DNA from: Callorhinchus milii
Taxonomy: Eukaryota
DNA length: 64,000 bases
Assembly (NCBI RefSeq): GCF_018977255.1
Contig: NW_024704742.1
Coordinates: 61,134,001 to 61,198,000 of the forward strand
Direction: 5' to 3'
A program made the position numbers and the translations under genes. The notes beneath the pieces are model-generated. The model saw only the letters and a list, made by a program, of their open reading frames with translations. It was not told the DNA's origin and made no database searches. Positions 2,041 through 62,288 of this stretch are shown piece after piece (position 1 is the first letter of the stretch; every line of letters begins with the position of its first letter).

Positions 2041-2041
2041 T

Positions 2042-3651: not shown

Positions 3652-3681
3652 ATTTTTTTTCTCTCTCTCTCTCTCTCTCAG
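3652..3681 (+). promoter_or_regulatory. Poly-T + (CT)n tract ending in CAG: candidate 3' splice site / 5'UTR microsatellite upstream of the GPM6A ATG
   Basis: ATTTTTTTT(CT)9CAG|CTCCTC; the AG ends at 3681, 57 nt before the ATG, with no ATG in between. Confidence 0.5.
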
Positions 3682-3738
3682 CTCCTCTAATAGAAGCTTT
3701 TGTTTAATTCTGTGTAGCATTTAGGACTGACAGGAGCA

Positions 3739-3775
3739 ATGGAAGAGAATATGGAAGAGGGGCAAACACAGAAAG
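3739..3775 (+). CDS. GPM6A: First coding exon of neuronal membrane glycoprotein M6-a (MEENMEEGQTQK + first base of Gly codon)
   Basis: ATG GAA GAG AAT ATG GAA GAG GGG CAA ACA CAG AAA G|GTATTG translates to the GPM6A N-terminus I recall (MEENMEEGQTQKG-CFECC...). Strong Kozak context (GCAATGG), in-frame upstream TAG at 3715-3717, phase-1 GT donor at 3776. Confidence 0.93.
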
Positions 3776-3963
3776 GTATTGTTTCGTTCAGAAAAATAAA
3801 TAAAATTAAAAGCATGTTCACTTTTGTGTTCCAGTTCACCGTTGGCTCAGGTGGATAGCAAAAGGGCAAGTAAATTAGCCCACAGTAGTTGGATGTTGTG
3901 ATTTAGCTCATCTTCTGTGCCTTTGGTTTCATTGTAAACAATGCTTATGTCTATACATTACTT

Positions 3964-3984
3964 TGTGTGTGTGTGCGTGTGTGT
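3964..3984. repeat. (TG)n microsatellite
   Basis: tgtgtgtgtgtgcgtgtgtgt. Confidence 0.8.
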
Positions 3985-6096: not shown

Positions 6097-6333
6097 AGGC
6101 TTGGGACACTTTCTGATGTGAAAGACACAATACAAATGTAATTTTGTTGGTGTTCTGGTCAACAATGTGTTGGGTTGTGACAAGACGTGTACAGGTACAT
6201 CCACTGAGAACCAGTTCAACCGCAAGAAAATGCAGCTCGCCTAATCTTTTTTTTCTCTGCTCATCATTAATGGAGGATACCTTTAGTCCTCCTGACGTGA
6301 AAGGCGCTACACAAATGTAATTTGTTGTTGTTG
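6097..6333 (+). mobile_element. Two tail-only L2 remnants (6097-6155 and 6280-6333)
   Basis: ...CCTCCTGACGTGAAAGGCGCTACACAAATGTAATTTGTTGTTGTTG, the same L2 3' terminus seen at 26118-26189 and 48762-48833. Confidence 0.65.
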
Positions 6334-6352
6334 ACACTATATTCATTACATC

Positions 6353-6945
6353 GAGGCTTGATTATATAAAATCCTTGCTTGTTGGCCTCCCCAGATCCTC
6401 TCTCCATAGGCTGCAGATCATTCAGAACTCTGCAGCCCGTGTCCTCCCGCACCAGGCTCTGTGTCAATATCACCCCCATCCTCACCCGACTCCACTGGCT
6501 TCCCATCACACAGAGGATACAGTTCAAGATCCTAGTTCTCACCTTCAAAGCCCTCCATGGTCTTGCTCCCCCCCTACCTTTGGGACCTCCTAACCCCCTA
6601 CCATCCCACCCGCTCCCTCCGCTCAGTGTGCTTTGGCCTGCTTCACGTCCCCACCTTGCCTACCCCACCATTGGCGGGCAGGCCTCCTGCCACTCTGCCC
6701 CCACCCTCTGGAACTCCATCCTGCAGTCCCTCCACCTCGCCCTCTCCCTGGCCTCCTTCAAAACCTGTCTCAAGACCCTCCTCTTCGACCATGCCTTCGA
6801 TCACCCTGAATCCCCTTCATGCCCTCCACCCTCCCCAACCCCGATCCCCAGCTCGGGTCCAAAAATCTGACTGTTTAGCGCCTTGAGACGCCCTCCCAAC
6901 AAGAAAGGCACTAGACAAATGTAATGTTGTTTTTCTTGTTATTAT
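6353..6945 (+). mobile_element. 5'-truncated L2 LINE (family A) with 13-bp TSD
   Basis: SRLDY..LVGLP..LHRLQIIQNSAARVL / ITPILTRLHWLPITQRIQFKILVLTFKALHGLAP / APTLWNS / FKTCLKTLLF, hairpin tail; TATTCATTACATC at 6340-6352 and 6946-6958. Confidence 0.92.
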
Positions 6946-7188
6946 TATTCATTACATCAACCTCTAAGATGGCAAGTTATGTGGACCCACCAGGGTTAAA
7001 TATCAAAGTCGTGGATTTACATAACTGACTGGGTTACCTGGAATGATTAAATTAGGTACAATTGTATGTACCAACAGGAAACGGTTTGGGGCAGTAGTAA
7101 AATCATAGAATAGAATATGAAGTTCTGTGATTTAGAATGAGGGTGTTGTGCCATGAAATGGTAATAATGTTGTATTTTGCCCAAGATA

Positions 7189-8066
7189 TTTCTTATTGGA
7201 TCCAAGAAATTGTTTGGCACATCTCCACAAGGAGAGAAACTGCTGTGTTGGTATGGTTTGCACTCTCTATCTTGCCTCCTTTAAGGCCTATCTCAAGACC
7301 ACACCTCCTACCACCCTCCTTATTCAGATAAAATGAACTTAATTTATCTTAATTGGGAAATAAACTAAACTTGATTCGTATTTTTCCCTCCCTCAATGGA
7401 AATGGATGTAGTTCAAGTTAATATTTAAACGTGCACTATGTCAGCCAAATTGTAAGAATTTCAACTGAGTAAAATAGACTCGCATCCCTTGGGAATATTT
7501 ACAGAATGTTAATTAAAGTGTAGAAGCAGATAGACCAGCCCACACAAAATCTGGTTGCGGTGCATTGCAACTGTCACTGCAAGAAATGTTGCCTGGGAAA
7601 TGAGAATGGGCTGTTGGTGGATGAGAATGTATATATTTGCAATTTTAGCTCGTCATTACACTACCTGAGGTTGTCATGGCAACAGGCAATGGTTGTTTGG
7701 AAATATTTGAAATTCTACAATATATTAAAAACTAACATTTTATATACATTTTCTCGTTGGGTGGACATCCCACTGTGCTTAACAATCCTGGTTTGGCATT
7801 CAAGCTGGGGTGGGAACTGAGGTGGGTAGGGCGGGGGAAGATGACTGAAAGCATGGTCAAAGAGGTAGGGCTTGAGACTGACTTTGAACGAGGGAGGGAA
7901 TAAGTTGAAGTTTTTTCTTATTGGATCCAAGCAATTGTTTGGCACATTTCCGCAAGAAAAGAAACTGTTGTTTTGGTATGGTTTGTACTCCCTTCCTTGC
8001 CTCCTTCAAGGCCTATCTCAAGACCGTCCTCTTCGACCATGCCTTCAGCCAACCTCCTACCCCTCT
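7189..8066 (+). repeat. Pair of ~110-150 bp diverged direct repeats (7189-7320, 7914-8066), L2-derived, flanking a minus-strand L2 3' fragment (~7740-7900)
   Basis: Both start TTTCTTATTGGATCCAAG.AATTGTTTGGCACAT and run into CTTGCCTCCTT.AAGGCCTATCTCAAGACC. Confidence 0.75.
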
Positions 8067-8104
8067 TGATCCCTCTTGATCCAAACCTCCATCTCAGACC
8101 CTGG

Positions 8105-8910
8105 AATGGACTTCCAGAAAGTTGGGACAGATAGGTGAAAAGCCTGCCTGCTGATGGTGGGGTGGGTTTAGGTTGAGAGACACAAAGCGAGACAGTGCTC
8201 GCTGAGCGAAGGGTGTGATCGGGTCAGTAGGGTTTGAGGAGGTCACAGAGGTAGGCTTGGAGGGATTTAAAGGTGAGAAAGAAGATCTTGAACTTGAGAG
8301 CAAATGGAGCTAATGAGGAACAGAGTGATGGGCTCATTATGATAAATGCCTGGAGGAAGGTCTTCGCAGCCCAAAGCTTTTAAAAACACAAACCCCAAAG
8401 AACAGTGAAAATTGCATAGAATTATGTACAATGTTACAGCATACAAACAGGCCATTCACTCTGGTGATTATACTTCACATACTACTCCACCTCTCTTATA
8501 CCTCTCCATTCATTTCTCTCTAGTGAATGCAACATGGTTCCAATTTCAAGATCCTCACACTGACATACAAATTGTTTCATGCCCTAGCACCTTCCTACCT
8601 ATCCAACTTGCAGACCCTACTCCTCTACCCATCCTATTCGCTTGTCTGGCTCAGCCTTCTTCGTTCCCTCGACCACTCCGCTCTGCCATCGATGGAAATG
8701 TCTTTAGCCAGTATTCCTTGAACCTCTGCTTTGCCCTCTCTTTTCCCATCATTAGATTGCACCTGAAGACTTTCCTCTTTGTGCCTACAGTTACTTGCCC
8801 TTTCTTCCCAGCTCAGCACCAATCTATGACATTTTATATTTTGTGGGAGAAACGCAGTAGCCAATTGTGCACAGCAGTGTCCCACAAACAGTCATGGATT
8901 GAGTGACAAA
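8105..8910. mobile_element. Cluster of decayed L2 3' fragments (- 8105-8370; + 8490-8820) and a SINE fragment (- 8830-8910)
   Basis: FKILTLTYKLFHALAPSYLSNL on +; the L2 3' region recognisable on -; AGCCAATTGTGCACAGCAGTGTCCCACAAACAGTC is the reverse-complement SINE core. Confidence 0.65.
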
Positions 8911-10871: not shown

Positions 10872-11590
10872 CTAGTATCCTTCCATCACAGCATCAAGCT
10901 GCTTTTTTAATGAGTCCAGTGTTTTGGCCACAACCACTTTTCCTGGCAACCTGTTCCAATTCATTGTTACTCTCTGGGTAAAGGAAGATTTCCTGGTATC
11001 TGTTCTGAAATTGCCTTTTGCAACTCTAAACCGATGTCCTCTTGTTCTATCGCCTTGGTGCAACCTGAAGTATTGTTCTGGGTTTAATAATAATAATAAT
11101 AATCCTTGCATTTGATATAGCGCTTTTCACGTCGGGAGGACGTCCCAAAGCGCTTCACAGAACACACCGTAAAGTGAATTGACTGTATATTTGTGGGCGA
11201 ACGCGGCAGCCAATTGCGCACAGCAATGTCCCACAAACAGTCGTAGATTGAAAATGACCAATTTATTATTGTTTTTTTTGGTTTTGGAGGGATTATTATT
11301 AGGTGTATGGAGTAAGGAAACTTGCCCAAGGTTTCGCCCTGCCTGGAATTGAACTCAGGTCTCTCACTTGCAAAGCGAGTGCTCTAACCACTGAGCTGTT
11401 CTTGCAATCCCATGTAAAGAGTCTTAGCTTACATAATATCTTACCTTGTAGCTCATATACCCAATACTAGGGATCATCTTTTGCACTGCTGTTAGGGTCG
11501 GGGCAGCATTTATTGATAGCATCCAGCACTCTATGTAATACTCCTGAAGTGGTGTGACAGGAGGACTATACTATTTCAGCATAACCTCTG
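10872..11590 (-). mobile_element. CR1 LINE 3' portion split by a SINE insertion
   Basis: YFRLHQGDRTRGHRFRVAKGNFRTDTRKSSFTQRVTMNWNRLP (CR1 ORF2 C-terminus); decayed continuation at ~11400-11590. Confidence 0.8.
11085..11397 (-). mobile_element. Young tRNA-Ala-derived SINE (short variant)
   Basis: Near-identical reverse complement of 13052-13365, with most of the A box, the B box and an (ATT)n tail. Confidence 0.95.
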
Positions 11591-13051: not shown

Positions 13052-13365
13052 GTGAAGTCCTGTAGCTCAGTGGTTAGAGCACTCGCTTTGCAAGTGAGAG
13101 ACCGGAGTTCAATTCCAGGCAGGGCGAAACCTTGGGCAAGTTTCCTTACTCCACACGCCTAATAATAATCCCTCCAAAAACAATAATAAATTGGTCATTT
13201 ACAATCTACGACTGTTTGTGGGACATTGCTGTGCGCAATTGGCTGCCGCGTTCGCCCACAAATATACAGTCAATTCACTTTACAGTATGTTCTGTGAAGC
13301 GTTTGGGACGTCCTCCTGACGTGAAAAGCGCTATATCAAATGCAAGGATTATTATTATTATTATT
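13052..13365 (+). mobile_element. Full-length young tRNA-Ala-derived SINE, inserted in an older L2 fragment (~12995-13610)
   Basis: A box TAGCTCAGTGG (13063-13073), anticodon arm CTCGC-TTTGCAA-GTGAG (TGC = Ala), B box GAGTTCAATTCC (13105-13116), L2-type hairpin tail and (ATT)n. Flanks read QLI*NS and ARLH*. Confidence 0.95.
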
Positions 13366-14401
13366 TGTCACCGCCATCCGTGCCCGGCTCCACTGATTCT
13401 GTTCACCAGTAGATCAAGTCAAGATCCCAATATTTTCTTGAATCCTTCCACATCTGAACCTACCTCTGCATTGCCTTCCAGCTCCACCTTCTTCAATCCA
13501 CAAACTCGGGCCTGATGCACACCCATTGGTATCAATATCCTTCCACCTTGTACCTTCTCTCCCAGTCATCAAAATCCTTCTAAAACCTCTTCAATTGTAC
13601 ATTTGCCTGCAAACTTGTTCCCCCAAAATAATTATCTATTTGTCTTGAATGAAACTGTTAAAAAGGGTAGAATTAATTTTTACCATAATGTTGGCATGCA
13701 GGAGTGTATGTGAGTGTTGACTGAATCTCTAATGTGCATTATGGGTAAAATATTGTCTTTTTTTAATTGATTTTATGATGCAATTTAAGTTTAAAAACCT
13801 TACATTTCTGTGCTTCTGTGGAGGAAGTGATTATGTTGAAAGATATGCTGGTCAGCATTTTTTTTATATATCCGTTGGGCAGCATTGACTACAAAGTGTT
13901 TTTTGTGCAGTTGTTTTAAAGATTGTGCTTCCAGCAAAAGCAGCAGGATGAAACCTTGGAGCACTTGATGTGCAGGGTTGCTATAGTTACAACCTAAATT
14001 TGCTTCAAGATCAAAGCATTATCTCATCATGTCTCTTGCCTACAGCCAAACACTGAGATTTGCTGCTCGGGCTAAAGGCACCACAATTCATTATTTCTTT
14101 TTCAACAATTTTAATCCACTGTACTTTTATAAAAAAAACACATTTTGGCTGCTGGTCAGCTGTAATGGATATGAATGTCCTGCTGTAAAACCATTAATTC
14201 AGTCTTTACGTTGCACAGCTCTCATATCCTAGTTGAATGTTGTGATACCAATATGTAAAGACCCAAGAACCAGAAGAGAAGATCTCTTACCTGGGCAGTC
14301 TTTTCATTTTATATTCCCATTGCACATCAATTATTGCCCACAGTATGTCCTGTGAAGCACTTTAAGATATCCTCCTGACACGAAAGGCACTTTATAATGA
14401 T

Positions 14402-20292: not shown

Positions 20293-21939
20293 ATTAGAGG
20301 GATTGGTCAATAAAGGGATTGAACAGTAATAATGCATAGAATTTGAAATTTCATGGATAGAAAATTTTGCAACAATTTTAAAATTAAGTGCTGAGAAATT
20401 AGTAATCCAGTTTATAAATCTGCCGTAGTCTAATGATAAAAATATCCTGCAGGGACACTGTTCCACAGATTACTTGATGGGGAAAAGTTGACGCATTTTA
20501 AAGTGGTTTTAAATTTTTTATGACCAACTCCCCTAAGAAGCAGGTTGAATGAATTTGCTTCACATTACACTGCTCTTGGTATGCTAATTTCAACAACAGA
20601 TGTGTCTTTATGGATCCCCCATAATTTCTTTGACTTTAAATAATTTAAAAAGAGATGTGCATAATTGCTTGCTTTTATCCCATGTGTTGGGCTGATAAAG
20701 AAATACCTGTGAAATACTGCACGGTTTGAGACTGGCGATTTCTGCCATGAATTTTGGTAATTATGAATATAGCGGCACCATTTCTTTGTACCCCACTTTA
20801 AGCTACACTAATTACAAGTGGATCTATTCCGAACCAATATTTGGACACAATCAGTTGAAGTCCATTGCATTTCCTTTGTGTGTGTTCTGACACTGTTAAC
20901 ATGAGCTGAATGTTATTATCCAAGCCTGTGGGGTCATACAGCTCTGTAGAATGTTAATAATTGCAAATCCAGGGTAATAGTTTTTTTGTAAAGTAAATGC
21001 AATGACTCTTCTGTGAACTCCATGCACTGACTCACCATTTGCTCTTGTATATGGAGAAAACAATTTATGCACATCTATTTTTCAAATGATTTAAAGTCAG
21101 AGAGGTATAAGGAATCTACAAAATACATTTATAGTAGCAAAAACAATCCTACTAGTGTAAAAATCTGACCACCACCTCCCCACCCACCCCATAGATTCAA
21201 TGTAAAAACTGACAGTACACTGTGCTTTGTCCAACAAAAGACTTCTGAACACTAAGTGCAGTAAACTGGCAAAGTAAAGTTATAATGGTTGTCATCTAAA
21301 AGAGACCTTCTCAAATAGTTAATATTCTTGGGCAAATGGAGTGGCTGAAAAAGAAAATAGTTTCTTAAAAAATGAAAGACACATAAAGATGACAAATTCC
21401 ACATTATATATGTAGCTAGAGACACACATATATGAAATGTATCCAAAAGCCAAGCAGACACTAGGAAGATGGATCCCACAAGCATTGAAGTGACCTCTTC
21501 TCGGCAATCTATTGTCATGGAATACAAAGGTTGCTGCTCCACTCAGAGAAAGTCACATTTACTTATTACCATTTCAATCGTATAAATCTCTACGCCTCAA
21601 GACAAATACTCAATAAAGATGCAAGGTAATAGATACATGGCAGGGAGTTACAGAAGTGCAATTTAAAATCAAGCATATCTGATGACATCATGAACTGTAA
21701 GAGCAAAGATATAGTTTACGATTTAGCAGAAAGACTGATTGAATTAGTCCATAAAAGACATGAAAGCTATTTGTTGCACCCAGGGGCAGGTGGTCAACAT
21801 GGAGATATCAGCTAAAATCATGCAGATGTAGCCAGACAATTTATTCTTGTGAGTATGGATGATTTTTACAATTTGCAGAAATCAGGCCAACTTATAGCCT
21901 ACAACTCAGCCAAAATACAATACAAAATTAAATTTTATG

Positions 21940-22365
21940 AGGGATGAGGCAATGGCGGAGCCGGGCGATGTTGCAGAGGTGGGGAAAAGCAGAGCGGGTA
22001 TGCATGGATGTGGGGTAGAAAGGATAGTTGAGGGTCCAACAAGACGCCAAGATTCCTAGTGTCTGCTTGGCTTTTGGGTACATTTCATATATGTGTGTCT
22101 CAGTGAGGTGGAATTTTCATCCTTGGATGATAATGATGCCAGTGCCTGAGGTGTGGAGGAGCTGACGGAATCCAATGAGGACAACCATTTTGATGTTCAA
22201 CTGTAGAAAGTTGGCTCTCATCCAGGACGATGTCTGACAGACATTCTGTCAGGACAGCAGTTGTCCTGGAGTTGAGGGTGGAGGCAGAGAGATAGAGTTG
22301 GGTGTCATCTACATACATGTGGAAATTGACCCCATGTCTGCAGATGATGTCACCAAGAGGGAGCC
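21940..22365 (-). mobile_element. L2 LINE RT fragment with catalytic motif
   Basis: LPLGDIICRHGVNFHMYVDDTQLYLS in ORF 22100..22375(-); RNLGVLLDP further on. Confidence 0.9.
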
Positions 22366-25224
22366 AATTGGTCATTCAACACTGACGAGTGTAAATTTGA
22401 GCCCTCGCTAGGTGGGCGCCAGAGACCAGGAACGCCTTGTGAGCCTTTTGATAGCAGCACAGCTCAGCACGTCATATGTGACAGCATTACCACTATCCTC
22501 CTCTGACGTGCCTTGGCAATGAGATGCTTCTGTCATGAAGCCACCTCTGCATTGTTGTTAAAATTGTCCTCAAATCCAGTCACAACAATAATTTTTAGTG
22601 TCCTGCTTGCTTCTTAAATAGTGAGAGGCCTTTAACAAGAATTTACTGTTTAAAATGTTTAACTGATTACTTGTGCATTAATGATGATCGGTCAAAGATT
22701 TTCCAATTTTATTTTAGATGATTGAAATTTCATTTTCTTAATTTAGCTCAAGTCCTGAATAAGTTAGTGCGTCTCATACAGTCCGTCTCTGCCTGTCTGG
22801 AGCACTTAATCTTATTAGAATGCAGGTCAATTTCAGCTCCCCATCAGGCTGCAATTGAGATGAAAAGCAGCCTCTCTTCGATTCGTGTGGTGGGTTGATT
22901 GTCAGCTCTTAAAATCATTTTAACTTTTGAGGGCAAAACAAAACTGTCACATTTGTAAATAGGATAGAGATGACCCAATCGTAATATTTTACTAAACCCT
23001 TTTGCCTTATTAAAGCAAGTAAGTAAGCATTTAGTTGCATCTCATACTTCACATTCAAATCTTTTGAACGTTGAGGGTTTTATTGATGGGGTTGCTAATA
23101 TTGGTGATGGCAGTAGGATGTGGGGGGATGGGGAGGCTTGTGAAGATAACTCTTGGGGAGGAGGAGAATTGGAGCTTGTTTTTGCTGTGGGATGAAATTA
23201 TCTTTGGGGTGGAGGCCATCAGAGATTTCTTCAATTATCATCTTTGTCAACTATTCTTTTGAGCAGCTCAGTTTGGAGAAGGGGGAGAATCTCTGCACAC
23301 TTTGGCATGCAGAGACCTAGCCAATTCCAACCGTAATTAGCAAATACTGTGCTGTATATATTTTTTGCATTAATAGAAAATGAAGAATTGAGAGGAAATG
23401 AATAATGGAAGCATTTTGAACCTTAATGGCATGTGGTGGGGTCAAATGTGAGCAGGGGGAGAGTGAGGGGATTTGGGTGGGGGTAGACGGGGGTGAGGTG
23501 TGGGAGGAGATGAGGAGGAGTCTCAAACATATGTTTATGGTGAGTGACTTGCCAATGCGTTTTTGAGATAGCAGAGGAGGTCTGTGCGTCTGACTGATTC
23601 CTGTTGTGGGCATTGTTTTCAACAACAAAATAATCCACCTTAAATAAGACTGAAATGGTTGAAATCACCTGCCACTGAATCAGTATTTGAAAGAAGAAAG
23701 AATAGACTGACCTTTTTGGGGTTTGATACTTCCATCAAAGTCTCACTGTCCTGCTGTGGATTTTGTTTTTAATTTTCAGCATTTGCAGTTATTCTGACTG
23801 AGCATCTTCGCTATAATTAAGACACAAGGTAAATTCACGCACATCATCCATTCAGACTCATCATGGGCACTCTAAACAGCATGTTAAATGGTGTTTCAGC
23901 ACACTATTTTCATATTTTTCCTACAAAAACATACATGGTTACACACTTTACAGCAAATAAGTGTTAAGCACCGTGAGACATCCTAACATGAAAGGTGTTT
24001 TGTCAATATACATTATCTATATATTCCAATCCTGCATCTCAATGCAGGAGGTTGTCACAAAGCTCTTTGCAGGATTCACAGACCATTTGTGAGCAACAAT
24101 GTCCCACAATCAGCCATAAAGTGCCAGCAAGCAATCATTATATAGCATTTAAAAATGCAGCAGTTTCTAAGAAATGCAATACCCTTGCTGTAGAGTAATT
24201 AGGTCATTTCTGATATGGTCAAAAAAAAATTCTTCCATCTGGTTTTGCTCATTAAATATTGAGCAGCCAGACTCGGATAGAAGCTGAAGTGTCGGTGGTT
24301 ATTTTATTTTAAAAGCTGGACTGCTGTGAACTGGGTACGTACCATCTGTGTTTTCCACACACTCAGTATATCGCCTACTGTTGCTACCATCTTCCCTCTC
24401 TGCAAGAGAGGCCAGTTAATCTTAAAATCATCCAGCAATCATACTTATTTTTTTCCATCATGGAGTCACCCTGGAAATAGTGTGTTTTTTTACAAAAAAA
24501 ACAATTTAAACCATCACGCATGATAAGACTTCCTGATGTAATTTGCAAAGATTTCTTCATATAAAACAACGGATGGGATCATTGGAAGTGCACATCTATC
24601 AAGTCCATCTATTTTTGACTGGACAATTAGAGTGTAGTCATAATAATGAACCCAGGGTCAATGTTGAGGCTGCACTGTCCATATTAGCTGAAGCACTCAA
24701 AGCACCATTAGTCTGTTGATTCCAGAGAAGTTAATTTATTACAGCAGATTCTCTAAATGTTGTGGTGAACATAATCCTAATTAAAAGGTTGGCCAATTTG
24801 CAATGGTTGTGAAAGTGTCATGTGTTTTCACCACAGATAGGCAGGAAAAGACATGGTTACACAGCGTATTAAGTGTTTCAAATATAAAAAATAACTAAAC
24901 AACACTTGAATTTGCTAATTATTTGAACCGTTGCTAACAATAACTTTGTACATGGATTATTCTACCAATATTTACAACTTTCACTTAGGTCAAGCATTTC
25001 ACATAGGTTAGGTAAACCAAGTTAGGTGGGAGATGCGAGGGGAGGTGACCAACAGAGCAGTAGAAGATGTTTTTTAAAGTAGGATTTGAAAGCAGAGAGT
25101 GAAGTGGTAAAGTGGACAGATTTATGTTAGCGAGTTCCAGAAAGTGGGTTCATGGTGACTGAGGGCTCAGACACCAATGATGTCTGACGAGCAGATTTTT
25201 AAGACTGCAGTGGTCCTGGAGTCT

Positions 25225-25658: not shown

Positions 25659-27848
25659 CAGTCTGCAATTTTGGTGTCTATCCACAAGAAGGGTGACTCT
25701 AGTGAAACTGATAACTACAAAGGGATCTCACTAATTTCAGTGGCTCTTAAAGTGGTGCTTCGGGTATCAAATGCATGGTGATCAGGAAGGTACAGGTTGG
25801 CTTCCGTTCTCGTGAGGAATGTATGGGATAGGTTGTGGCTCTGTATGAGATCGCAGAACGTCGTAAGGCTGAGAGGAAACTCACTTGCCTTGTGTTCATC
25901 AGCTTTCATAAGGCTTTCGACCTAGTTCCTCTCAGCCCCTAGGCTCTGGAACTCCATTCCCCAGTACCTTCGCCTTGCTTCCTCCCTTTCCTCCTTCAAG
26001 GCCGGTCTCGAGACCTTTCTCTTCAACTGTGCCTTCACCTCCCCTCTCGACTCTCTACCCCCTTCCCTCCCCTCACCCTGACCATTTCCCCCCTGGTCGG
26101 GTCCCGACCCAACTGTCCAGCGCCTTGGGACGTCCTCCCGATGTGGAAGACGCTCTATAAATGCAATCTTGTTGTTGTTATTGTTGTTGAGGCTGGAAGC
26201 CATAGCAGCACATGGCTGAAACCTAGATTTTATCTGGAATGTGTACTCCAGCTCCAAGATTCGTGTAAGGGCCAACAGTGGACTTACTGAGGCCATCCCT
26301 CTGGAAAGCGGTAGAAAGCAAGGCTGCCCATTGTCACCCATCCATTCAATGTGTTCATCAGTGACATGTTGGATGGCATCGAAGAGGAAGGGCTTAGTGT
26401 ATCTGTTCCAGGCCTCTCTGACAGGATTGCAGCATTTCTGTTCGTGGGTGATATTGTGCTGCTGGCGGACTTACTTGGGGACCTTCTGCACTGCACTCGC
26501 CATTTTGAACACTGGAACAACCAGGGACATGGTGGTAGGCGCCCCCAAGTGCAGAATCATGGTTCTACATGGCCAAGGGAAGACATTGAGGGAATTGATT
26601 GGAAGATAAAAGAGGCATCAGTCCAAATTGTTGACTTTGATCAGTACCTCGGGGTTGTGATGGACACCAACTTCAGCCACTGTCCTGAAGGACCACGCTG
26701 AGAAGGGGGTAACGACACTCTGGTCATTCTCATCCCTCTTCAAGGACAGCAAGGTCCCAAGCGTGTGGTATATAATACCTGTGTGCAAACAGTCTTCCTT
26801 TATGCATCTGAGCTCCTGGGGATGCAGCGGAGAGGCTTCCTTCGACCCATCTGCAAAGTCCACAATCAAGCAACGAGGTGGATTTGTGGCAAACATGGGA
26901 AGCGGCTACAAGGAGGGAGAGCTTCAGCCTATACTGACCTGTTGCTAATCGCCCTGGAGGTGGAGTCGGCTTCACAGCGGGCACATTTATTTGCCAAGAC
27001 CTCTCACGTGAGAACCTGGATTGAGCAGCTGGTCCTGAGTGAGTCCGGTTTGCGGCATTGCACTTGAACCTCAAGAACATCAAAGTGGATAGCACGTCAC
27101 AAGTTATCCTATAAAGGTCCTCCCACCACGTTGAAGGCAGATGATGGCCAGATAGTTGATAAGGAAACTCTGAGGCTTGGGTGACAGCTGCTGGAGGGCG
27201 TTACCTGGAGTTCGAGTTCGTGAACACACGTTCATACGTCCAGTGCCTGGAATCCACCTTGCTTGCCTCCAGAAAGGCAAACAGCTGCTGCTTAAACCCG
27301 CACCTCCAATTGGTGGAACCATTGCTCAATGGGAAGGGATGTGTGCCCGAGTTGTGGACAGGAAGACAGTGGCAATGCTCTCACGCATTTCGTACTGTGA
27401 TGTGTTGCCCGACAGGAAGCTCCCAGGGAGTCCTTGATACCTATCATCCACCTAGTGAGGAACAAACCTGCGCCTGTCAGATGTTGAATGACCAACTAGT
27501 GACTATCCTCCTTGAGGGGTGGGGGGGTAAGTGGGGTCTCCTTGGAGCTGAACTGGTTCCAAGGTGACATGTCGGGCAATGGAATGTCGGAATTGAGCCA
27601 ACCCTCTGTGACGGTCGCAGTAGTCCGGTTCCTGAGCCAGGATGGCCCGTAGTATTCCAGGGCACTGCTGATGACAGCCCCGCCAGCCTGGCTGATCAGC
27701 AGGATCTAGAATGGCAGACCACTCACTAGGGTAGGGAGTCATCCCACTCAGCTCTTGTTAACCCTTCAAGCCAAAGCCCTAAGAAGTAGGGTGATCCTAG
27801 CTGGACAAGCAACGGGAAAGCTTGTCGGATAGCAATATCAATGGTAAG
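25659..27848 (+). mobile_element. 5'-truncated non-LTR retrotransposon, RTE/RTEX-group-like (RT + C-terminal CCHC), pseudogenised
   Basis: AILVSIHKKGDSSETDNYKGISLISVALKV; QVGFRSREECMG*VVALYEIAERR; LVFISFHKAFDLVP; GRKQGCPLSP; VPGLSDRIAAFLFVGDIVLLA; YLGV; YASELLGM; CPSC-X10-H-X4-C at 27344-27403. The 3' boundary is approximate. Confidence 0.85.
25928..26189 (+). mobile_element. L2 family A 3' end nested in the RTE-like LINE
   Basis: Matches 48762-49040 (-); hairpin AGCGCCTTGGGACGTCCTCCCGATGTGGAAGACGCT and (TTG)n tail; splits KAFDLVP from RLEAI. Confidence 0.92.
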
Positions 27849-28070
27849 TTATGTGATTTTAGCTGGTTAGACTCCAGCAGTACCTGCAACGTTCACTCTG
27901 AGGTCCCCAAGTCTTGGCTCTTGCCAATCTGCACCTAATACTTACCGGAATTAGGTAAGCAGGATGTGTCCCTCAAGGAACAGTGCTATTCCTGGATTAT
28001 ATAATATAACATAATGATGTTGTTGCTGATGTATTAGAACCAACATCAGAATGTTGCTTCAGATATTTCT

Positions 28071-39938: not shown

Positions 39939-42900
39939 ATTATTTTATGTAATAATAGTATAATATTACATAATAATTATGTAATATTTCTGAATGCTAG
40001 CCTTCTTAAACAGCAATATATGTTAAAGAGAGTGTGTTTGAAAAGATGAGAAATGGAGATTATTGAGAAATGGCCCTGAATATGTTGAACACATTTTACA
40101 TTTTATCCAATACAACATTATATACTGCCCGGAACATTTGTTGGGTCTCACTGAATGTAAGATTTGTTTTGGTCAGCAGTTGAAACCCATCATCATAGAT
40201 AATGTATATGTATGTCATCCATGCATGGAATTTTCCCTTTATCTGGAAAGGAGTACACACTCTCCCCAAAGAGACACACCTTGCTTACCTAATTCCAAAA
40301 AGTATAGGTTGGTAGGTTGGTGAGAAGCAAGCCTTGGCCCCCTAGAATGTGTTTAACCAGCTAAACTCACTAAGCTTTACAGTATATCCTATGAACAACT
40401 TTGTGATGTCTCGATGACATGACGTGCTATACTAATACACAAATTATTATGAATAAAATTGTTTAGCTTGTCGTTGTGAATAGTCTAGAAGCTTCCTGTT
40501 GCTTACCCAGGTTGGACAATTCTAACAATTAGAAGTTAAGTGAAGAATCCTTGTCCCCATTGGCCAACCTGCCCCTTCAACTCTCGCTGTCAATCCCGGC
40601 TGGCTTGTCGTCAACAAGCCTTGGAGCTTTGGGGACTTGTTTGGCTTAGGAATTGGATGACCAAAACCACTACAGATATTCAGCTTGATTTCAATATTCC
40701 TTCACCTAGTTCATTGCCTTGGAGCTAGCTGAACCCCAAGAAGAACCCCAGTTACCACCTTCTCTCCCACCTCTTTACCCCAGGAGGATAGGTAAGAGTG
40801 GATTTTGTCCCAACCCTGTGCATTCGTCAGTACATTTAATATTGCATACTTTCAAAGAGGGGAAGAAGGTGAAAAAGCCTCTCTGGACAACATTTAAATG
40901 ATGGGAGAAAATGTTTATAATCTATGATTTTCAGGGGATACATCTGGACTGCTCCCTAAAAAGATCACTTTGTTTTTTTTTTAAAAAATGTTTTAAATTA
41001 TGCTTTGCACAAATGAGGGTTCATGCAGAATTTTGCTGCAGCTACTGCCGAGTGGTAGAACTGAGAATTAGATTGTGGTGGTGCAGTGGATTAGAGCTGC
41101 AAGATAGAGCACCACAACATTCATATTCTGTATTGAATGCTACTGCTTTGCTATGGGACAGCATTGCACGCTAAGTATTTCTCTGGGAAGAGAACAATGA
41201 TTTGAGTGTGTGTGGTGTGTGTGTGGGGCGCGGGGGGATGTTTGTGGTGCATGGAGGAAAGAATGAACGAAGAAACCTGTACATCATCTCAGGCCATTTC
41301 TGTGCACCTCCCAGCACTTTGGGGTGTCCTCCTGATGTGAAAGGCACAATATCAATATAAATTTTTATTGTTTTAGACTGGACACTTGCAGAGTCCTGTT
41401 TGTTGCGTGGTGACCTGAAAGAATGTGGAAAGCGAGACTGAATTCCACAGAGATGTTCACTCAAATGCTTAAAAAATCAAGTTTACCAAGTGCAAGAGGT
41501 TAATTTTTTTTTAGAAAAATTGGTGTGGGGCCAAAAATGTATCATATAGGACAGCAATTTAAGAAATAGCAGCTCAGTGATGCTCTGTTTGTCATTTGTT
41601 TGTCTCTGTACATTTTAGGAGGAATAGAGGGCTAAGGGGAGCAAGGAGTGTCACAGTATTGAGGACGTGGGAAAGAAAGGTGGCAATGGTGTGGCTGAGT
41701 TTTCATTTTAAAATATTGAGAATATCTGAAAGTTGCCATGTCCTTTGGTGTAGGTGGAATCCCTCTTTCAAAGTCTTATTGTATTGAAATACATTTAACT
41801 TGAACTGAGAATAATGAAATTGCAAATGATACACTTTTATACCTATTTCTGTAGCAAAGATATAACCACCTCCTTCTTAGTTTTAAACATAGTATGACAT
41901 ACATACGAGGTTCAGTGGGAATCGCTGCCATTAAACCTGGAAGAAAAGATCAGTAGGATGAATAAAAGAAAGGATATGAGGGTAAGACTGGAAGATCATA
42001 AATATATTGAATAAACCTATTGAATTTATAACATTTAAAATTGCAGTACTTCAGAAACCACAGGATAGACAACTGTGTGACACAAAGAAATATAAATACT
42101 GCAGATAGCTCTCTGGATTTGGATGATACACGGACATAGAAACCACTAAATTTAGTGGTGCGGAATGAGCCATTTGAAGGCTTACACAATGTTTTACATC
42201 AGCAGGTTTCTTTTTGTACGTGTTACCATGTATCACACTTAGAAATTTACAGCTGATAAGGGATACTGCAAAATCCATTTTAATTCCACTCTTTGTACAC
42301 CATATCTCTTGGGTGTTGGTGATTTAACAGAAGATGGCAGTATAATATTTGAATTCAGGGATAGATTATGTACCATTATTATTTTTTATTTCTGAAATCA
42401 AATTGCATTATTAACGACCCCCCTGCCCAAAACCCCCTGCCCATATTTGCTTTAATTTTAAAAAGCAGCAGCCTTCTATATTTAATTAGCTTGTACATAA
42501 AATCAATTCTCTAGAGGTTCAAAAGGTAGACCTCAGTTCCTATTTATCTGGGCTGGGTTTTCATTAGAACTTTCTGTCAAATCCATAGGGGTTGTCTGAG
42601 ACCTACAAATCTCTGATCTTTTATTGAAGTCAGTGGCATTCAAACCATAAACTTGTTTCATCTTTATTAGTGCATGGACAACTTTCATGTCTTTTGTCAT
42701 ACCTTTTGAATGGTTTAACGGAGGGTTCTGTTTTTTTTCTAAATTTTGTGCAGTGTTTGCGAATGTGATGTGTTCCTTTGATGTAAATGCTCAATCGATT
42801 TGCATCACACAGCTAACATTTGCAGGAAGATCATTAGCACATTTCCGATGGGTGCCTCCAAAATTCAGCAGCCATTATGAGGCTGACTAGTGCTATTAAG

Positions 42901-46145: not shown

Positions 46146-48761
46146 ATACGAATTTAAAAAAATTAACATCAACAAATCCTGATATTCAATAATTGTGCTA
46201 AACAGGGGGAGAGTCCCAGAGAAACTGCCTCTTTGCCTCATGAAACAATGGAAGATTTGTTTTAATACGTATATAGGGTTATATTTCACTTATTTCTAAA
46301 AGAAAAATAGGGTTCCGATAGTAAAAGTTTTATGAAACTGATGAAATCTTAAAAATAGGCAGGACTATTTTTGTTTTCTGGCGAAGGGGGTCTTTTAAGC
46401 TGTGGAGACTCAAATGATCAATGATCTAGCTTTTATCCTGATGCAACTTGGTCATTAAAAGTTCCAGCAAAGACACAATGGGCCTTCTAAAGAACATAAG
46501 AATATAAGAAATAGGAGCAGGAGTAGGCCATTTGGCCCCTTGAGCCTGGCCCGCCATTTAGTAAGATCATGGCTGATCTTCTAACCTAATTCCATTTACC
46601 TGCCCTATCTCCATATCTCTTAAACACTTCAGTTTTTAAAAATCTATCGATCTCAGTCTTGAATATGTTCAATGACTGAGCATCCACAGCCTTCTGGGAT
46701 AGAGAATTCCATAAATTCACTACCCTCTGAGTAAAGAAATGTTTTCTCAGCTTAGTTCTAAAGGGCTGAACTTTAATCTTAGTTTTAGATTCTCCAACCA
46801 GTGGAAACAGTCTCACACTATCTACCCTGTCAAGACTCTTAAGAATCTTATAGGTTTCTTTAAGATCACCTCTAATTCTTCTATATCCTAGAGAATATAG
46901 GCCTAGTTTATTTAACCTCTCCTCGTAGGTCAACCTCCTCATCCCGAGAACCAACCTAGTGAATCTACATTGCACCCCCTCTAAAGCGAGTATATCCTTT
47001 CTTAGATAAGGAGACCAAAACTGCATACAATATTCCGGGTCGGTCTCACCAAGACCTTATACAATTGCAGTAAGACTTCCCTATTCTCATACTGTGACCC
47101 CTTTGCAATAAACGCTAACATGCTATTAGCCTTTCTAATTGCTTGCTGTACCTGCATACTAACTTTCTGTGATTGGTGTACAAGGACACCTAAATCCCTC
47201 TGAATACTAACACTAGTATTCAGAATACTAATCTCTCCCCCTTTAGAACATAATCTGTTTTTTTATTTTTTCTACTTAGGTGAATAATTTCACACTTCCC
47301 CACATTATACTCCATCTGCCACCTTCTTGGCCACTCACTTAACCTGTCTATATCCCTTTGCATCCTCCTTGTGTCCTCCTCACAACTTACTTTCCCGCCT
47401 AGTTTTGTGTCGTCTGAGAATTTAGATACATTGAGCTCTATTTCCTCATCTAAGTCATTGATGTAGAATGTAAACAGTTGAGTCCCAAGCACTGATCCCT
47501 GCGGCCCTCCACTAGTCATAACGTGCCAATCTGAGAAGGACCCGTTTATCCCTACTCTCTGTTTTCTGCCTGTTAACCATTCTTTGATCCATGCTAATAT
47601 AGTACTCTTAATTCCATCTTAGGTAACAACCTTTTATGTGGCACCTTGTTGAAAGCCTTCCAGAAATCTAAGTACACTATAGCCACTGGTTCTCCCCTAT
47701 CTAACCTGCTAGTTACATCATCAAAAAACTCTAAAAGATTTGTTAAACACAATTTCCATTTCATAAAACCATGTTGACTCTGCCTAATCATATTATGACT
47801 TTCTAACAACAACGACTTGGATTTATATAGCACCCTCCATGCCGGACGGCGTCTCAGAGCTCTTCACAGTAACGGATCCCGGGGCCGAGCCAGAGGGAGG
47901 GGGAGGAAGGCGACCAAAGGCGCGGTCGAAAATAAAGATCTTCAGCAGGGACCTGAAAATAGGAAGAGAGGGGATGAGAAGGAGGGAGTGAGGAAGGGAA
48001 TTCCAGAGCCTTGGGGTGGAGTAGCTGAAGGCACGGCCGCCGAGGGTGGAGCGGAGGACTCAGGAGACAAGGAGGAGGCCAGATCCGGAGGAACGAAGGC
48101 AACAGTACTGTTTTGAGGAGAGAAGAGGTCAGAGAGGTGGGGGGGTGCAGAGGAGTGGAGGGATTTCAATACAAGGATGAGGATCTTGAAGCCGATCCTC
48201 TCTGGGATAGCAGCCAGTGCAGTCTGGCAAGGAGTGGTGTGATCAGGGAGCGGAGTTTGGTGCGGGTGACAATGCGGGTGGCAGAGTTTTGAATGATTTG
48301 GATTTTATGGATGGTAGTGGATGGGAGATCAGCAAGGAGGGCATTAGAATAGTCCAGCCGAGAGGTCACAAAGGAATGGACCAGGGTTTCAGCGGCTTTT
48401 GGAGAGAGGTATTGGCGGAGACGGGCGATTCGTCGGAGAGAAGAAGGCAGTGCTGGTGAGGGACCGATGCGGGGAGGAAGGATAATTGGGGTTCGAACCT
48501 GACACCTAGGTTGAGTATGGGTTGGGAGAGTTTTAAGGGGAGGTCTGGTAGGTGGAGGAGGTGAGAGCCGTGAGATTTTAGAATTTCACGAGAGCCAAAG
48601 ATTAAGGCATCTGTCTTGTCACCGTTCAGCTAAAGGAAATTTGCGCTCATCCAGCCCCTGAGATCTGACAGGCAGGCTGACAGAACATCAGGGGACTGGG
48701 GATCGCAAAGAGAGGTGGAAAAATAGTGGAAATGTACCCCATGTCTGCAGATGACATCCCT

Positions 48762-49347
48762 AACAACAACAAAAAACAACAAGATTCCATTTATAGAACG
48801 CCTTTCACGTCGGGAGGACGTCCCAAGGCGCTGGATAGTTGGGTCAGGATCCAAGCAGGGGGGAAATGGTCAGGGTGAGGGGAGGGAAAGGAGGGAGCGA
48901 GGAGGGGGTAGAGAGTCGAGAGGGGAGCTGAAGGCACGGTCAAAGAGAAAGGTCTTGAGACTGGCCTTGAAGGAGGAAAGGGAGGAGGCAAGACAAAGGC
49001 ACTGGGGGATGGAGTTCCAGAGCCAAGGGGCTGAGAGGCTGAAGGCCCGGCCACCGATGCTAGGGCGATTGGGGCGGAGGACGTGGAGCAGACCGGAGCC
49101 GGAGGAACGGAGGGTACGGGCAGGTAGGTAGGGGGATAGTAGGTCAGAGAGGTAGGAGGGAGCAAGGCCGTGAATGGCCTTGTATGTGAGGATGAGGATC
49201 TTGAATTCGATCCTCTGGGGGATGGGGAGCCAGTGGAGGCGAGCGAGGGTGGGAGTGATGTGGTCGCGAAGCCTGGTTTGGGACAGTACACGAGCTGCAG
49301 AGTTCTGAATGACCTGCAGCTTGTGGACGGAGGTGCAGGGAAGGCCC
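48762..49347 (-). mobile_element. 5'-truncated L2 family A nested inside the full-length L2
   Basis: Has its own hairpin and (TTG)n tail. Removing it rejoins host YILPLG|DVICRHG. Candidate TSD TCCCTAA (48757-48763) / TCCCCAA (49348-49354). Confidence 0.88.
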
Positions 49348-58813: not shown

Positions 58814-60334
58814 ATAAGGGAGAACGTCCCAGCACCTTGGGACATCCTCCCGACGTGAAAGGCACAAGACAAATATAATTTTGTTGTTGTTTTGTATAGT
58901 ATCTCCTCTCAATCTTCTGCTTGCTTCCCTCTTTATAATGTTCTTTCTCAAGTATTATTTTGGAGTCATCAATCCAATTCCCATTTGAAAGGGGCTGTGT
59001 TGAACTCAAGGGAATATGGAATCCCTTTACAGGCACCAAGGCTTTCCATAGAATATTATAAACACGATTCATTTCAGAAAACTGAAGGGTTAGTATACTG
59101 GTTGTTGCAGGAACCATGGATTCAGCATTTGAATGAGAACGGCCTGTTGGCACTCATGGAACCTTACCACATCTGGATGTGTTAATCTTGAACCTTAATT
59201 TCTACAACTAATGGTTCCTTTGTGAAAACAGCAATGGGTGACATTTCTAAGTGCTGAGCATAAACCTCTGTGTTATTCTTCCTATTAATGAACTGTTTTA
59301 CTGAAGTCATTGGTTCACAATTGATGACAGGAGCAATCGGTGTCAAGTATTTATATTTCCCTCTAGAGAAGCCAAGGAAACCACTTATTGAGGTGGGCCT
59401 GAGCTGCTCCCTTTACATCACTGCACCACTGCTAAGCACCTGGCTGCAATGCAATGAGTACTTTGGGTTTCCAAAGCGATGTTGGATTCAGCATGTTAGC
59501 ATGCAAATCCAGTCTTTTTTGTAATGCCACAGTAGATGCAGCGTGACCATCTATGGGAGGTGAATTAGCTTACTCATTTGAAGTGATGAGATGACTGAAA
59601 CAAGCTGGGCTAATAATACTATCCACCGATATTGCCATCTCCTTAGCACTTTGCTTCTTCAAGACTATTTCTCAGATTTATGTTGTCAGAATTCTTGGTT
59701 TACTGTTTTTTTGTTAAACAAAAGTAACAAATACATATTCTACGATGAGACTGCTTTTCATTTTTAAAAGGTGGTAATGATGCCACCTTTAGAAAGACTT
59801 CAACTGTTTATTTTGACGTTTATGTTAAGAAGGCAAAATTGTTAACTTATTTTGTTTATCTCGGTGTCCAATACACGCAGAAACCCATCATCTGACTTAT
59901 GAGAGCACTCCCTGATAAGTCTCCTGCTGTTTATTCAGCTGGGATCATCCCATATGTTAGGTTTAGGCTTGCAGGCTTAATAAGTACCGATTTGATAGTG
60001 TGGCACTTAGGCAATAGCAGCTTGCCTCTCTGCACACCAATTAAAGTGGATATCAAGCTCTGGATATATGAACGTGTTCACAAACCTGGTTTCCAGTTAA
60101 ATCTTCCAGCAGCTGTTGGCCCAAATTTGGGTTTCCTCATCAGCTATTTGATGGACATCTTCCTTCAGCAGGATTGGAGGACCTATACTGCACAATGTGT
60201 CAGGCATCTTGATCTATAAGTCCAATGTCACTTGCTCAATGCAAACTGCTTAATTCAGATCCTTGAGAGACTTATATTGACCCTTGTTTAGGACTCTCTT
60301 TCACGTTATCTAGGGAGCTCAAAATACTCAAGAA

Positions 60335-61368: not shown

Positions 61369-62288
61369 ATGCATACTGTGGATTACTGTCTAAATGCATG
61401 CAGGCCAGGAGAATGGATGAGGATGGCCCATTCCACGCCAGTGTCTGCCATCTAACGCTCGAGGGATGTGATAGATTATGGCTGAAGCAGCTTCACAAGA
61501 TGCTGCCTGAGCCTGACCTCCATTGTTAACACCAGGAACACAGGCTCCTGTGTTGTTCAGGCATCTGCAGAGAATACTAATGCTGAAACCTCACACACAC
61601 ACACACACAGCTTTTTCTGTCTGTGGTACTCTCCCACAGTGTTGTCACCTGGAACTCTGACCCCTGTGTACAGATCAAGTGAAAGTTAACCATCGGTTGG
61701 GGAACCCGCACCCTAAACTGTGGGAAATTGACATCTTGCCCAAAGGCAAATACTTTCAATTTTAATATATGTCCTGCAACAACTGGTTAAATTTTGTGAA
61801 ACATTTACACTTAGAATTATAGAAATTACACATTGAAAGAGGGTGTTTGTCCCATGGAGGCTCTGCTGGTGTGCTCACCCATGTTCACAGCGGCCTGTTA
61901 TTAATCCTCATAACCCTGTTATTAATCCAGCAAGTAATGTAGATAGAATTGCCAATGAAATAGTACCCTCCTTGGCCTACATCAGTCCTAAGGAAAATGA
62001 ATGTTGCACACACTCTTAAATATTGCCACATGTCTCATCGGGTTCATCGAAAGGAATTGGAGTGTTAGACCTGTTATTTTTGAGCAGGGATTCTTCCCAT
62101 TCAGCTCCTCTTAACCCTGCAAGCTACAGCCCTAATAGATATGTATGGTGTCCAAGCTGGACAAGCACAATTTTGCCAGAGAATGCTCTCAGTGCTGAGC
62201 TATACAGTGTCAGCTGGTTAGACTCCAGCAGTACATCAACGCACACTCTGCGAACTCCAAGTTTTGCTTATAATTACCCAGCAACAAC

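What the first reader, a model, noticed from the sequence alone, without database searches (positions are those of the whole stretch)
25659..27848. An unusual LINE (RTE/RTEX-group-like, CCHC knuckle) whose motifs recall fungal/microsporidian retrotransposons: possible horizontal transfer
Seen: a ~1.9-kb (excluding the nested L2) decayed RT ORF, visibly GC-richer than its flanks and single-copy in this window. Its motifs differ from every CR1/L2 here: KKGD..NYKGISL, GFRSREECxx*VVALYEIAERR, KQGCPLSP, VPGLSDRIAAFLF(V)GD, ASQRAHLFAK..RTWIEQL...T*TSRTSKW and C-X2-C-X10-H-X4-C. Established: CR1/L2 use PQGSVLGP, whereas QGCPLSP marks RTE/L1-type RTs, and canonical RTE lacks a C-terminal CCHC. From memory only (inference): the EECxxQxxALYEIxxRR and VPGLxxRIxxLLFADD signatures resemble LINE proteins annotated in trichomycete fungi (Smittium) and microsporidia. 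If so, this is an atypical vertebrate LINE lineage and a parasite-host transfer candidate.
Basis: partly seen in the sequence, partly recalled or inferred. Interest (0 to 1): 0.7.

Follow-up and report, generated by a model that had tools for sequence, protein, structure and literature searches.

The report
Unusual ancient LINE in cartilaginous fish
This is a dead, broken copy of an old and abundant jumping-gene family in a cartilaginous fish; its relatives are known mostly from fungi, microsporidia, algae, a yew tree and unidentified environmental organisms, so it may have entered the fish lineage by an ancient transfer, but not demonstrably from a parasite.

Summary
The element is real: a 5'-truncated, dead LINE at 25659 to ~27993, interrupted by a younger L2 (25928-26189). 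It aligns to a profile of intact relatives from the start of RT to the C-terminus (score 830, control 49; 11 frameshifts, 5 stops). Host contigs span its 5' junction. It is not single-copy: four more decayed fragments lie in the window, and host contig depth rises steeply towards the 3' end. The RT tree places it (99/97) in a distinct, apparently unnamed clade of endonuclease + RT + CCHC elements, sister to RTE/RTEX-like elements; grouping it with those is rejected (AU p=0.013). The fungal and microsporidian members are among its most distant clade relatives (34-36% RT identity, best 45%). Its nearest kin are two unnamed fragments. It shares a covarying 3'-UTR hairpin with the clade. Verdict: a new vertebrate host for a poorly described LINE clade. 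Ancient horizontal transfer is plausible (~50%), a parasite donor unsupported. Repbase/Dfam and other vertebrate genomes could not be checked.

The parts
25659..25930 (+). 5'-truncated start of the RT domain (KKGD..NYKGISL; clade motif Q.GFR..EE..LYE..RR; FHKAFDLVP). One frameshift near 25779, one stop at 25829. No endonuclease or 5' UTR upstream.
   Evidence: host contigs span the 5' junction with 0-1 differences (table 8)
25928..26189 (+). Nested, younger L2 3' end with (TTG)n-type tail, inserted inside the RT; about 6 codons of the host element are missing at the site
   Evidence: 86% (blastn) to 48764-49038, K2P 0.10; an out-of-frame translation matches a Callorhinchus milii UniRef protein at 75%
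26190..26760 (+). Rest of RT and thumb (QGCPLSP; VPGL..FVGD at 26441-26452; YLG). Frameshifts near 26343, 26516, 26568, 26672, 26760; stop at 26217.
26760..27343 (+). Post-RT region; carries the sublineage-specific segment shared with P0013 and P0086
27344..27403 (+). C-terminal CCHC zinc knuckle (C-X2-C-X10-H-X4-C), broken by a stop at 27398
   Evidence: a C-terminal CCHC is present in 202 of 231 proteins surveyed
27404..27789 (+). C-terminal end of the ORF (LLGG- and VARFL-like motifs to 27635). The probable original stop is the TAG at 27787-27789 inside motif A, as in three relatives (inferred).
27770..27792 (+). 3' motif A (GCCAA.GCC...GTAGGG) overlapping the ORF end; folds as a short hairpin
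   Evidence: pattern found in 3 of 157 loci (all clade members) and once in the window
27857..27884 (+). 3'-UTR motif B: TTTTA, then a 5-bp stem-loop, then A..TACC, with compensatory changes across the clade; candidate RT recognition element
   Evidence: 7 of 157 loci (all clade members) and once in the window; 4 of 5 pairs change on both sides
27885..27993 (+). End of the 3' UTR, ending in ATTCC (27988-27992); other host copies continue as ATTCC repeats. No target-site duplication found.
   Evidence: (loose ends at 27966 and 27978)
22363..22504 (-). Decayed fragment of the same family (CCHC region)
   Evidence: E 3e-12, K2P 0.39
40249..40803 (-). Decayed 3' fragment (element ~27491-27993)
   Evidence: E 1e-21, K2P 0.40
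59876..60269 (-). Internally deleted fragment (element 27005-27304 joined to 27746-27864)
   Evidence: K2P 0.37
62039..62277 (+). 3'-UTR fragment that keeps motif B (62202-62241)
   Evidence: K2P 0.34

Best explanation
WHAT IT IS (shown, ~0.93): a dead, 5'-truncated copy of an old, abundant LINE family in a cartilaginous fish genome. The family belongs to a distinct, apparently unnamed clade sister to RTE/RTEX-like elements. Intact relatives usually have one 1200-1500 aa ORF: a short N-terminal extension, an apurinic-like endonuclease, an RT with the Q.GFR..EE..L.E..RR signature, and a C-terminal CCHC knuckle. HOW IT WORKED (inferred from L1/RTE biology, ~0.85): target-primed reverse transcription. 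The endonuclease nicked DNA, the RT engaged its RNA at the 3' end (probably via the conserved hairpin and repeat tail), and copying usually stopped early. That leaves many short 3' copies and few RT-bearing ones. This copy was then cut by an L2 and decayed. ORIGIN (inferred, ~0.5): an ancient horizontal transfer into the cartilaginous-fish lineage from an unsampled eukaryote of the P0013/P0086 sublineage, not from the Smittium/microsporidia branch.
For: Profile alignment over the whole element. 429 hits at E<=1e-3; 149 of the best 150 are RT-clade proteins and one is the nested L2. Motif in 194 of 231 and CCHC in 202 of 231 proteins. RT tree 99/97, RTE/RTEX-like grouping rejected. Endonuclease + RT in intact relatives; best solved relative is L1 ORF2p. 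Genuine host DNA: all 10 holder rows (3 studies) are one organism, and contigs span the 5' junction. Summed contig depth in run X2: 6.5 in the flank, 451-978 over RT, 32,173 at 27468-27561, 126,390 at 27844-27937 (not a copy number). Five loci in 64 kb at K2P 0.34-0.40, with differences spread over codon positions (24/31/32%, p=0.17). Shared 3' hairpin. For transfer: named clade members are all non-animal; the two published trees holding these microsporidian elements list them next to red and brown algal sequences (label order only); the clade's host range is scattered.
Against: No close donor exists: best RT identity is 45% and the backbone is star-like, so sequence similarity cannot show a transfer. 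Only 30 proteins were looked up by name, and most clade members have no known host, so animal members may be hidden among them. One Atlas cluster near P0013 has a single Annelida record (weak). No vertebrate or invertebrate genome could be searched. The element's branch is long (0.84) because of decay. The RTE/RTEX stand-ins are unnamed. The hairpin rows were picked by a pairing pattern written after seeing them, and the AT-rich clade members (L001, L002, L085, L086) gave no hairpin hit.
Confidence: 0.55

Rival explanations
1. Vertical relic: the clade is as old as eukaryotes, was inherited by animals, survives in cartilaginous fishes (slow-evolving genomes) and perhaps in poorly annotated invertebrates, and was lost or decayed beyond recognition in bony vertebrates.
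For: The clade spans fungi, microsporidia, brown algae and a gymnosperm and a red alga. Pairwise RT identity is uniformly low (median 43%). Microsporidian members are described as inherited from the common ancestor. The element's sublineage has a long stem (1.01). One Annelida record near P0013.
Against: No animal-named protein among the RT-clade proteins whose names were seen, although Callorhinchus UniRef proteins are in the library (P0022). It needs many independent losses.
Confidence: 0.28
2. One reading: direct transfer from a microsporidian or gut-fungal parasite into the fish.
For: Same clade as Smittium and Trachipleistophora elements. [quoted passage not shown] Microsporidia exchange other transposons with animals (passages). 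The RT AU test does not reject the grouping (p=0.145).
Against: Those proteins are among the least similar clade members (ranks 196-218 of 257 for RT; ranks 68-166 for the post-RT region). They sit outside the 19-row subclade that holds the element (95/92) and form a separate 99/96 clade in the post-RT tree.
Confidence: 0.07
3. The family is already catalogued in Repbase/Dfam or in shark RepeatModeler libraries under a loose label (RTE-X, RTE, Tx1 or Unknown), and is simply an old chondrichthyan LINE.
For: It is abundant, so de novo repeat finders would recover it. RTEX-like, CCHC-bearing LINEs are known in vertebrates (L4, L5; passage).
Against: Ten literature searches listed no paper on such a shark family or on this clade by name. 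No protein above 45% RT identity was found. The RT does not group with RTE/RTEX-like stand-ins.
Confidence: 0.3
4. Assembly contamination or chimera with parasite or environmental DNA.
For: Intact relatives do turn up as contaminant contigs in bacterial bins.
Against: Host contigs from 3 runs in 2 studies span flank and element with 0-1 differences, and one spans the L2/element junction. A host L2 is nested inside it. Four more decayed loci lie in the window.
Confidence: 0.01

Closest known systems
Microsporidian/Smittium non-LTR elements (T. hominis ELQ76088, S. culicis OMJ08715/OMJ10672; unnamed group in the supplementary trees of PMC3486916 and PMC5381614)
   Same: RT signature, VPGL..LLFADD region, C-terminal CCHC, same RT clade (99/97)
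   Different: Separate sublineage; 34-36% RT identity; the published trees list no animal sequence among them (label order only)
Unnamed environmental elements P0013 and P0086
   Same: Reciprocal best matches over the post-RT region (38-39%); 100/99 clade with the element
   Different: Only 209- and 113-aa fragments; hosts unknown; no RT available for them
Taxus chinensis KAH9290949 and Pylaiella littoralis CAN0455222
   Same: Same clade, also in multicellular hosts; Taxus is 43% identical over RT and a weak sister (82/37)
   Different: The sister relation is unsupported; plant and brown-algal hosts
RTEX clade (L4, L5 in mammals; Repbase)
   Same: Endonuclease + RT + C-terminal CCHC (recalled definition); neighbouring branch of the tree
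   Different: The RT does not group with RTEX-like stand-ins; intact relatives mostly lack a separate ORF1; distinct signature motif
RTE clade (BovB, plant RTE)
   Same: Single ORF, QG..LSP motif, short-repeat tail
   Different: RTE lacks the CCHC knuckle (recalled); grouping rejected by the AU test
Human LINE-1 ORF2p (PDB 8uw3)
   Same: Best solved relative of the family profile (E 5.5e-86); same domain order; model for the mechanism
   Different: L1 has ORF1 and recognises poly(A) (recalled); this family has a structured 3' UTR

Membership tests
Endonuclease-type non-LTR retrotransposon (LINE) | Non-LTR RT domain | tested here: met
   (RVT_1, weak, E 0.035)
Endonuclease-type non-LTR retrotransposon (LINE) | Apurinic-like endonuclease upstream of RT | tested here: inconclusive
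   Absent from this truncated copy; present in intact relatives (PF03372)
Endonuclease-type non-LTR retrotransposon (LINE) | 5' truncation and 3'-biased copies with a repeat tail | tested here: met
Endonuclease-type non-LTR retrotransposon (LINE) | Target-site duplication | tested here: inconclusive
   No shared 6-mer or longer between the two ends; expected to erode at this age
Unnamed Q.GFR..EE clade (microsporidia, Smittium, algae) | Q.GFR..EE..L.E..RR signature | tested here: met
   194 of 231 proteins carry it
Unnamed Q.GFR..EE clade (microsporidia, Smittium, algae) | RT monophyly | tested here: met
   99/97; SH-aLRT 93.9 in a 64-row tree
Unnamed Q.GFR..EE clade (microsporidia, Smittium, algae) | 3'-UTR hairpin (motif B) | tested here: met
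   not universal in the clade; no fungal or microsporidian UTR of known host was available
Smittium/microsporidia sublineage | Element nests in or is sister to it | tested here: not met
   the RT-only AU test does not reject it (p=0.145)
RTE clade | No C-terminal CCHC (recalled definition) | tested here: not met
   CCHC at 27344-27403
RTE clade | RT monophyly with RTE | tested here: not met
   AU p=0.013 against eight RTE/RTEX-like stand-ins; stand-ins labelled from recalled motifs
RTEX clade | C-terminal CCHC (recalled definition) | tested here: met
RTEX clade | RT monophyly with named Repbase RTEX families | tested here: inconclusive
RTEX clade | Separate ORF1 (recalled definition) | tested here: inconclusive
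   5' end missing here; of L001-L005 a long same-strand upstream ORF was seen in L004 and L005 only
L1/Tx1 | RT monophyly with named L1/Tx1 | not tested
   No named L1/Tx1 sequence in the trees; one possible stand-in (L073) fell outside the clade
CR1/L2 | RT monophyly and PQGSVLGP-type motif | tested here: not met
Described chondrichthyan repeat family (Repbase/Dfam) | Match to a catalogued consensus | not testable with these tools
   No repeat library or vertebrate genome is held

The most novel reading that the evidence does not exclude
This is the first vertebrate family of an unnamed, deep LINE clade (sister to RTE/RTEX, with its own RT signature and conserved 3' hairpin) otherwise known from microbial eukaryotes, algae, fungi and a gymnosperm. 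It crossed into a cartilaginous-fish ancestor by ancient horizontal transfer from a non-animal eukaryote, amplified to many thousands of copies, and may have driven a ~500-nt non-autonomous derivative.
Probability: 0.33. Interest if true: 0.72.

Novelty: new variant of a known kind. Interest (0 to 1): 0.5.

Why it matters
[quoted passage not shown] A family from an extra clade at about five loci per 64 kb would be a sizeable, probably mislabelled part of cartilaginous-fish genomes. Transfers of LINEs into vertebrates from outside the animals are rarely documented (own knowledge), and slow-evolving shark genomes could keep an unusually old case. The clade itself seems under-described: hundreds of diverse intact members in metagenomes, a shared 3' RNA hairpin, and frequent contamination of bacterial genome bins. 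The locus has no sign of function; it is a fossil.

Tried and rejected
No genome is held for this window, so copy number and distribution rest on the window and on Logan contigs. Pfam on 8 element segments gave one weak RVT_1 hit and one chance hit. A word-index search with the element gave 2 hits among 1765 candidates. A search for full-length relatives of P0013 gave 0 of 444 candidates (weak evidence). A metagenome scan with P0004 alone gave 0 of 17. The viral collection gave 1 locus at 29%, without the 3' hairpin. Hammerhead idea (CTGATGA at ~27669): Rfam found nothing credible in 27400-28060 or in L001-L005; rejected. The 3' 246 nt fold no better than shuffles overall (z 0.14). GC content as a sign of foreign origin: rejected. 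A third-position excess between copies was not significant. No target-site duplication. No RNA holder listed. Organism B's run laid 0 contigs, which proves nothing. No host exon was recognised: 0 of 100 ORFs of 78 aa or more hit Pfam (the element and 46500-53000 were left out). Earlier findings: nothing in 4 look-ups. A literature search for the hairpin word listed 6 papers, none on retrotransposons by title. The fungal clade names Deceiver/Inkcap (recalled) were searched but not matched to this clade. No fold or complex job was sent; it would not bear on the question. The hairpin's spread in metagenomes beyond the loci already held remains open.

Full report
OBSERVATION. A full-length relative (P0001) aligns co-linearly across the frame changes. 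I built a profile from 150 intact relatives and aligned the window to it, allowing frameshifts and leaving out the nested L2. The alignment runs from 25659 to 27635 and covers RT, thumb, post-RT region, CCHC knuckle and the C-terminal motifs. It scores 830 half-bits against 49 for the reversed control and has 11 frameshifts and 5 stops. The element keeps the family's majority residue at 159 of 271 conserved columns. The RT active-site word reads FVGD instead of FADD. The copy is dead.

CORRECTIONS. It is not single-copy. Four more loci in the window match its 3' part (five nhmmer hits; none in the reversed window) at K2P 0.34-0.40. Its 3' end is near 27993. Its GC content (0.51) exceeds the flanks but is below the L2/CR1 region at 48-52 kb.

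HOST AND REALITY. The nested L2 matches a Callorhinchus milii protein and the window holds tRNA-Ala-headed repeats, so the host is a cartilaginous fish (inferred; species not determined). All 10 rows that hold the stretch, from 3 studies, are one organism. I laid 4 of the 24 listed runs. In 3 of them contigs span flank and element with 0-1 differences, and one contig spans the L2/element junction. Summed contig depth at 80% likeness in run X2 is 6.5 in the flank, 451-978 over RT, about 570-8,700 over the post-RT part, 32,173 at 27468-27561 and 126,390 at 27844-27937. The tool warns that this is no copy number. I use it only to show a multi-copy family with a strong 3' bias. The closest other copies listed differ at roughly 11-18% of letters (table 8), so the family has younger and older layers. 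Loose ends suggest an ATTCC-repeat tail. Differences between window copies fall at codon positions 1/2/3 at 24/31/32% (p=0.17), as expected for mostly neutral decay.

WHAT CLADE. HMMER over 1.84 billion proteins gave 429 hits at E<=1e-3 and none at 1e-30. Among 231 proteins gathered, 194 carry GF[RKQ]..EE and 202 a C-terminal CCHC. Intact ones have endonuclease + RT in one ORF. Of 30 proteins looked up by name, the organism-named RT-clade clusters were Smittium culicis (2), Trachipleistophora hominis (1), Pylaiella littoralis (1), Taxus chinensis (1) and one bacterial bin label; one further hit was the Callorhinchus L2 product; the other 23 carried no organism. Intact elements also appear as 4-5 kb stand-alone contigs in bacterial bins, which I read as eukaryotic contamination. 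In a 35-row RT tree (LG+G4; bootstrap not fully settled; rows chosen from 257) the clade has 99/97 support and is sister to eight RTE/RTEX-like sequences (99/91). Those stand-ins are unnamed and were labelled from recalled motifs. Forcing the element among them is rejected (p=0.013). A 64-row quick tree agrees.

WHICH RELATIVES. Best RT identity is 45% (unnamed). Smittium is at 34-36%, Trachipleistophora 34% and Pylaiella 36%, ranks 184-218 of 257. The element lies in a 19-row subclade (95/92) that excludes Smittium and Trachipleistophora, with Taxus as an unsupported sister (82/37). Grouping it with the fungal and microsporidian rows costs 22.5 log units but is not rejected (p=0.145). Over the post-RT region two unnamed fragments, P0013 and P0086, are reciprocal best matches (112 and 79 bits; next 60.5). 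They form a 100/99 clade with the element, while Smittium, Trachipleistophora and P0097 form a separate 99/96 clade (30 rows). The Atlas adds only one Annelida record in a cluster near P0013 (weak).

3' RNA SIGNALS. Relatives share two 3' motifs. A pattern for motif B (TTTTA, 5-bp stem-loop, A) hit 7 of 157 loci, all clade members near or downstream of their ORF end, and the window once, at 27857. Shuffled windows give 0.16 hits. Four of five pairs show changes on both sides, and 0 of 500 shuffles reach the covariation score. The pattern was written after seeing these sequences and selects for pairing, so the 100% pairing is circular. The position and the absence from non-clade loci are the informative parts. 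A covariance model found the two window copies it was built from and one weak hit (L004, E 0.59) among 38 further loci; AT-rich clade members lack it. Motif A (3 of 157 loci and the window) contains the stop codon in three relatives, which suggests the shark ORF ended at 27789.

MECHANISM. Shown: domain content of relatives, truncation, 3' bias, decay, L2 insertion, conserved hairpin. Inferred from L1, RTE and R2 biology (own knowledge; the passage describes 3' stem-loops in 'stringent' LINEs): target-primed reverse transcription with recognition of the structured 3' end. The tenfold depth step near 27500, which coincides with the 5' edge of the 40.2-40.8 kb fragment, hints at a ~500-nt non-autonomous derivative (inference, ~0.4).

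COMPARISON WITH PRINT. PMC3486916 (passages; text of Fig. S5, labels jumbled) and PMC5381614 (passages; supplement parts 2, 3 and 6 and searches) treat microsporidian non-LTR elements as ancestral. The latter's Fig. S7 includes ELQ76088 (my P0067) listed with Nosema, Edhazardia, Amphiamblys and Cyanidioschyzon, followed by Ectocarpus, with no clade name in the text I saw. I could read label order, not topology. PMC5753468 (passages) lists the Repbase clades and those with traces in humans. PMC4350176, PMC4202319, PMC3749934, PMC4654818, PMC3747384, PMC4421812, PMC7313128 and PMC7070016 were seen as passages only; none of those passages describes this family. Ten searches (listings only) showed no paper on it. 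The library lacks most subscription journals and Repbase Reports, where such families are usually described, and bioRxiv supplements were closed. Absence from print is therefore not shown.

VERDICT. The element is a fossil of an abundant family from a LINE clade not listed for vertebrates in what I could read. Identity and clade: ~0.93. Origin: ancient transfer from an unsampled eukaryote ~0.5 (non-animal donor ~0.33), vertical relic ~0.28, direct microsporidian or trichomycete donor ~0.07, the rest undecided. Independently, ~0.3 that it is already catalogued under a loose label. Novelty: new variant of a known kind. Interest 0.5.

Noticed in passing
window 27490-27993 and 40249-40803 (-): Contig depth jumps about tenfold near 27500, where the 40.2-40.8 kb fragment also begins; possible ~500-nt non-autonomous derivative of this LINE.
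   Followed up: partly
P0085 (Taxus chinensis KAH9290949): A member of the same clade annotated on a 680-Mb yew chromosome; a second large-genome multicellular host.
   Followed up: partly
L081-L090, L100, L103: Intact or partial elements of this clade sit as stand-alone 2-5 kb contigs in bacterial and archaeal genome bins; probably eukaryotic repeats binned by mistake.
   Followed up: partly
L001, L002, L085, L086, L088: An AT-rich (29-33% GC) sublineage with QFGFRN.EEC; resembles anaerobic gut-fungal LINEs (recalled); lacks the 3' hairpin where a 3' end is held.
   Followed up: no
L003 677-867 and 5253-5931; L081; L082: Sequence from the element's 3' end recurs upstream of the ORF or at the contig ends, suggesting tandem arrays or repeated targets in some clade members.
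   Followed up: no
window 11086-11397, 13052-13366, 53561-53854, 61047-61368, 62280-62514 and others: Young tRNA-Ala-headed SINE family, 91-98% identical among the youngest copies, many older copies.
   Followed up: no
window 46586-47809 (-), 48761-50258 (-), 52209-52913 (-), 6370-6947 (+): CR1 and L2 fragments with long open frames.
   Followed up: no
window 21419-21467 and 22053-22101: 49-nt inverted repeat pair, 98% identical, about 590 nt apart; possible MITE or DNA transposon ends.
   Followed up: no
window 1-64000: No host exon recognised: 0 of 100 ORFs tested hit Pfam; the window looks like repeat-rich intronic or intergenic DNA.
   Followed up: partly
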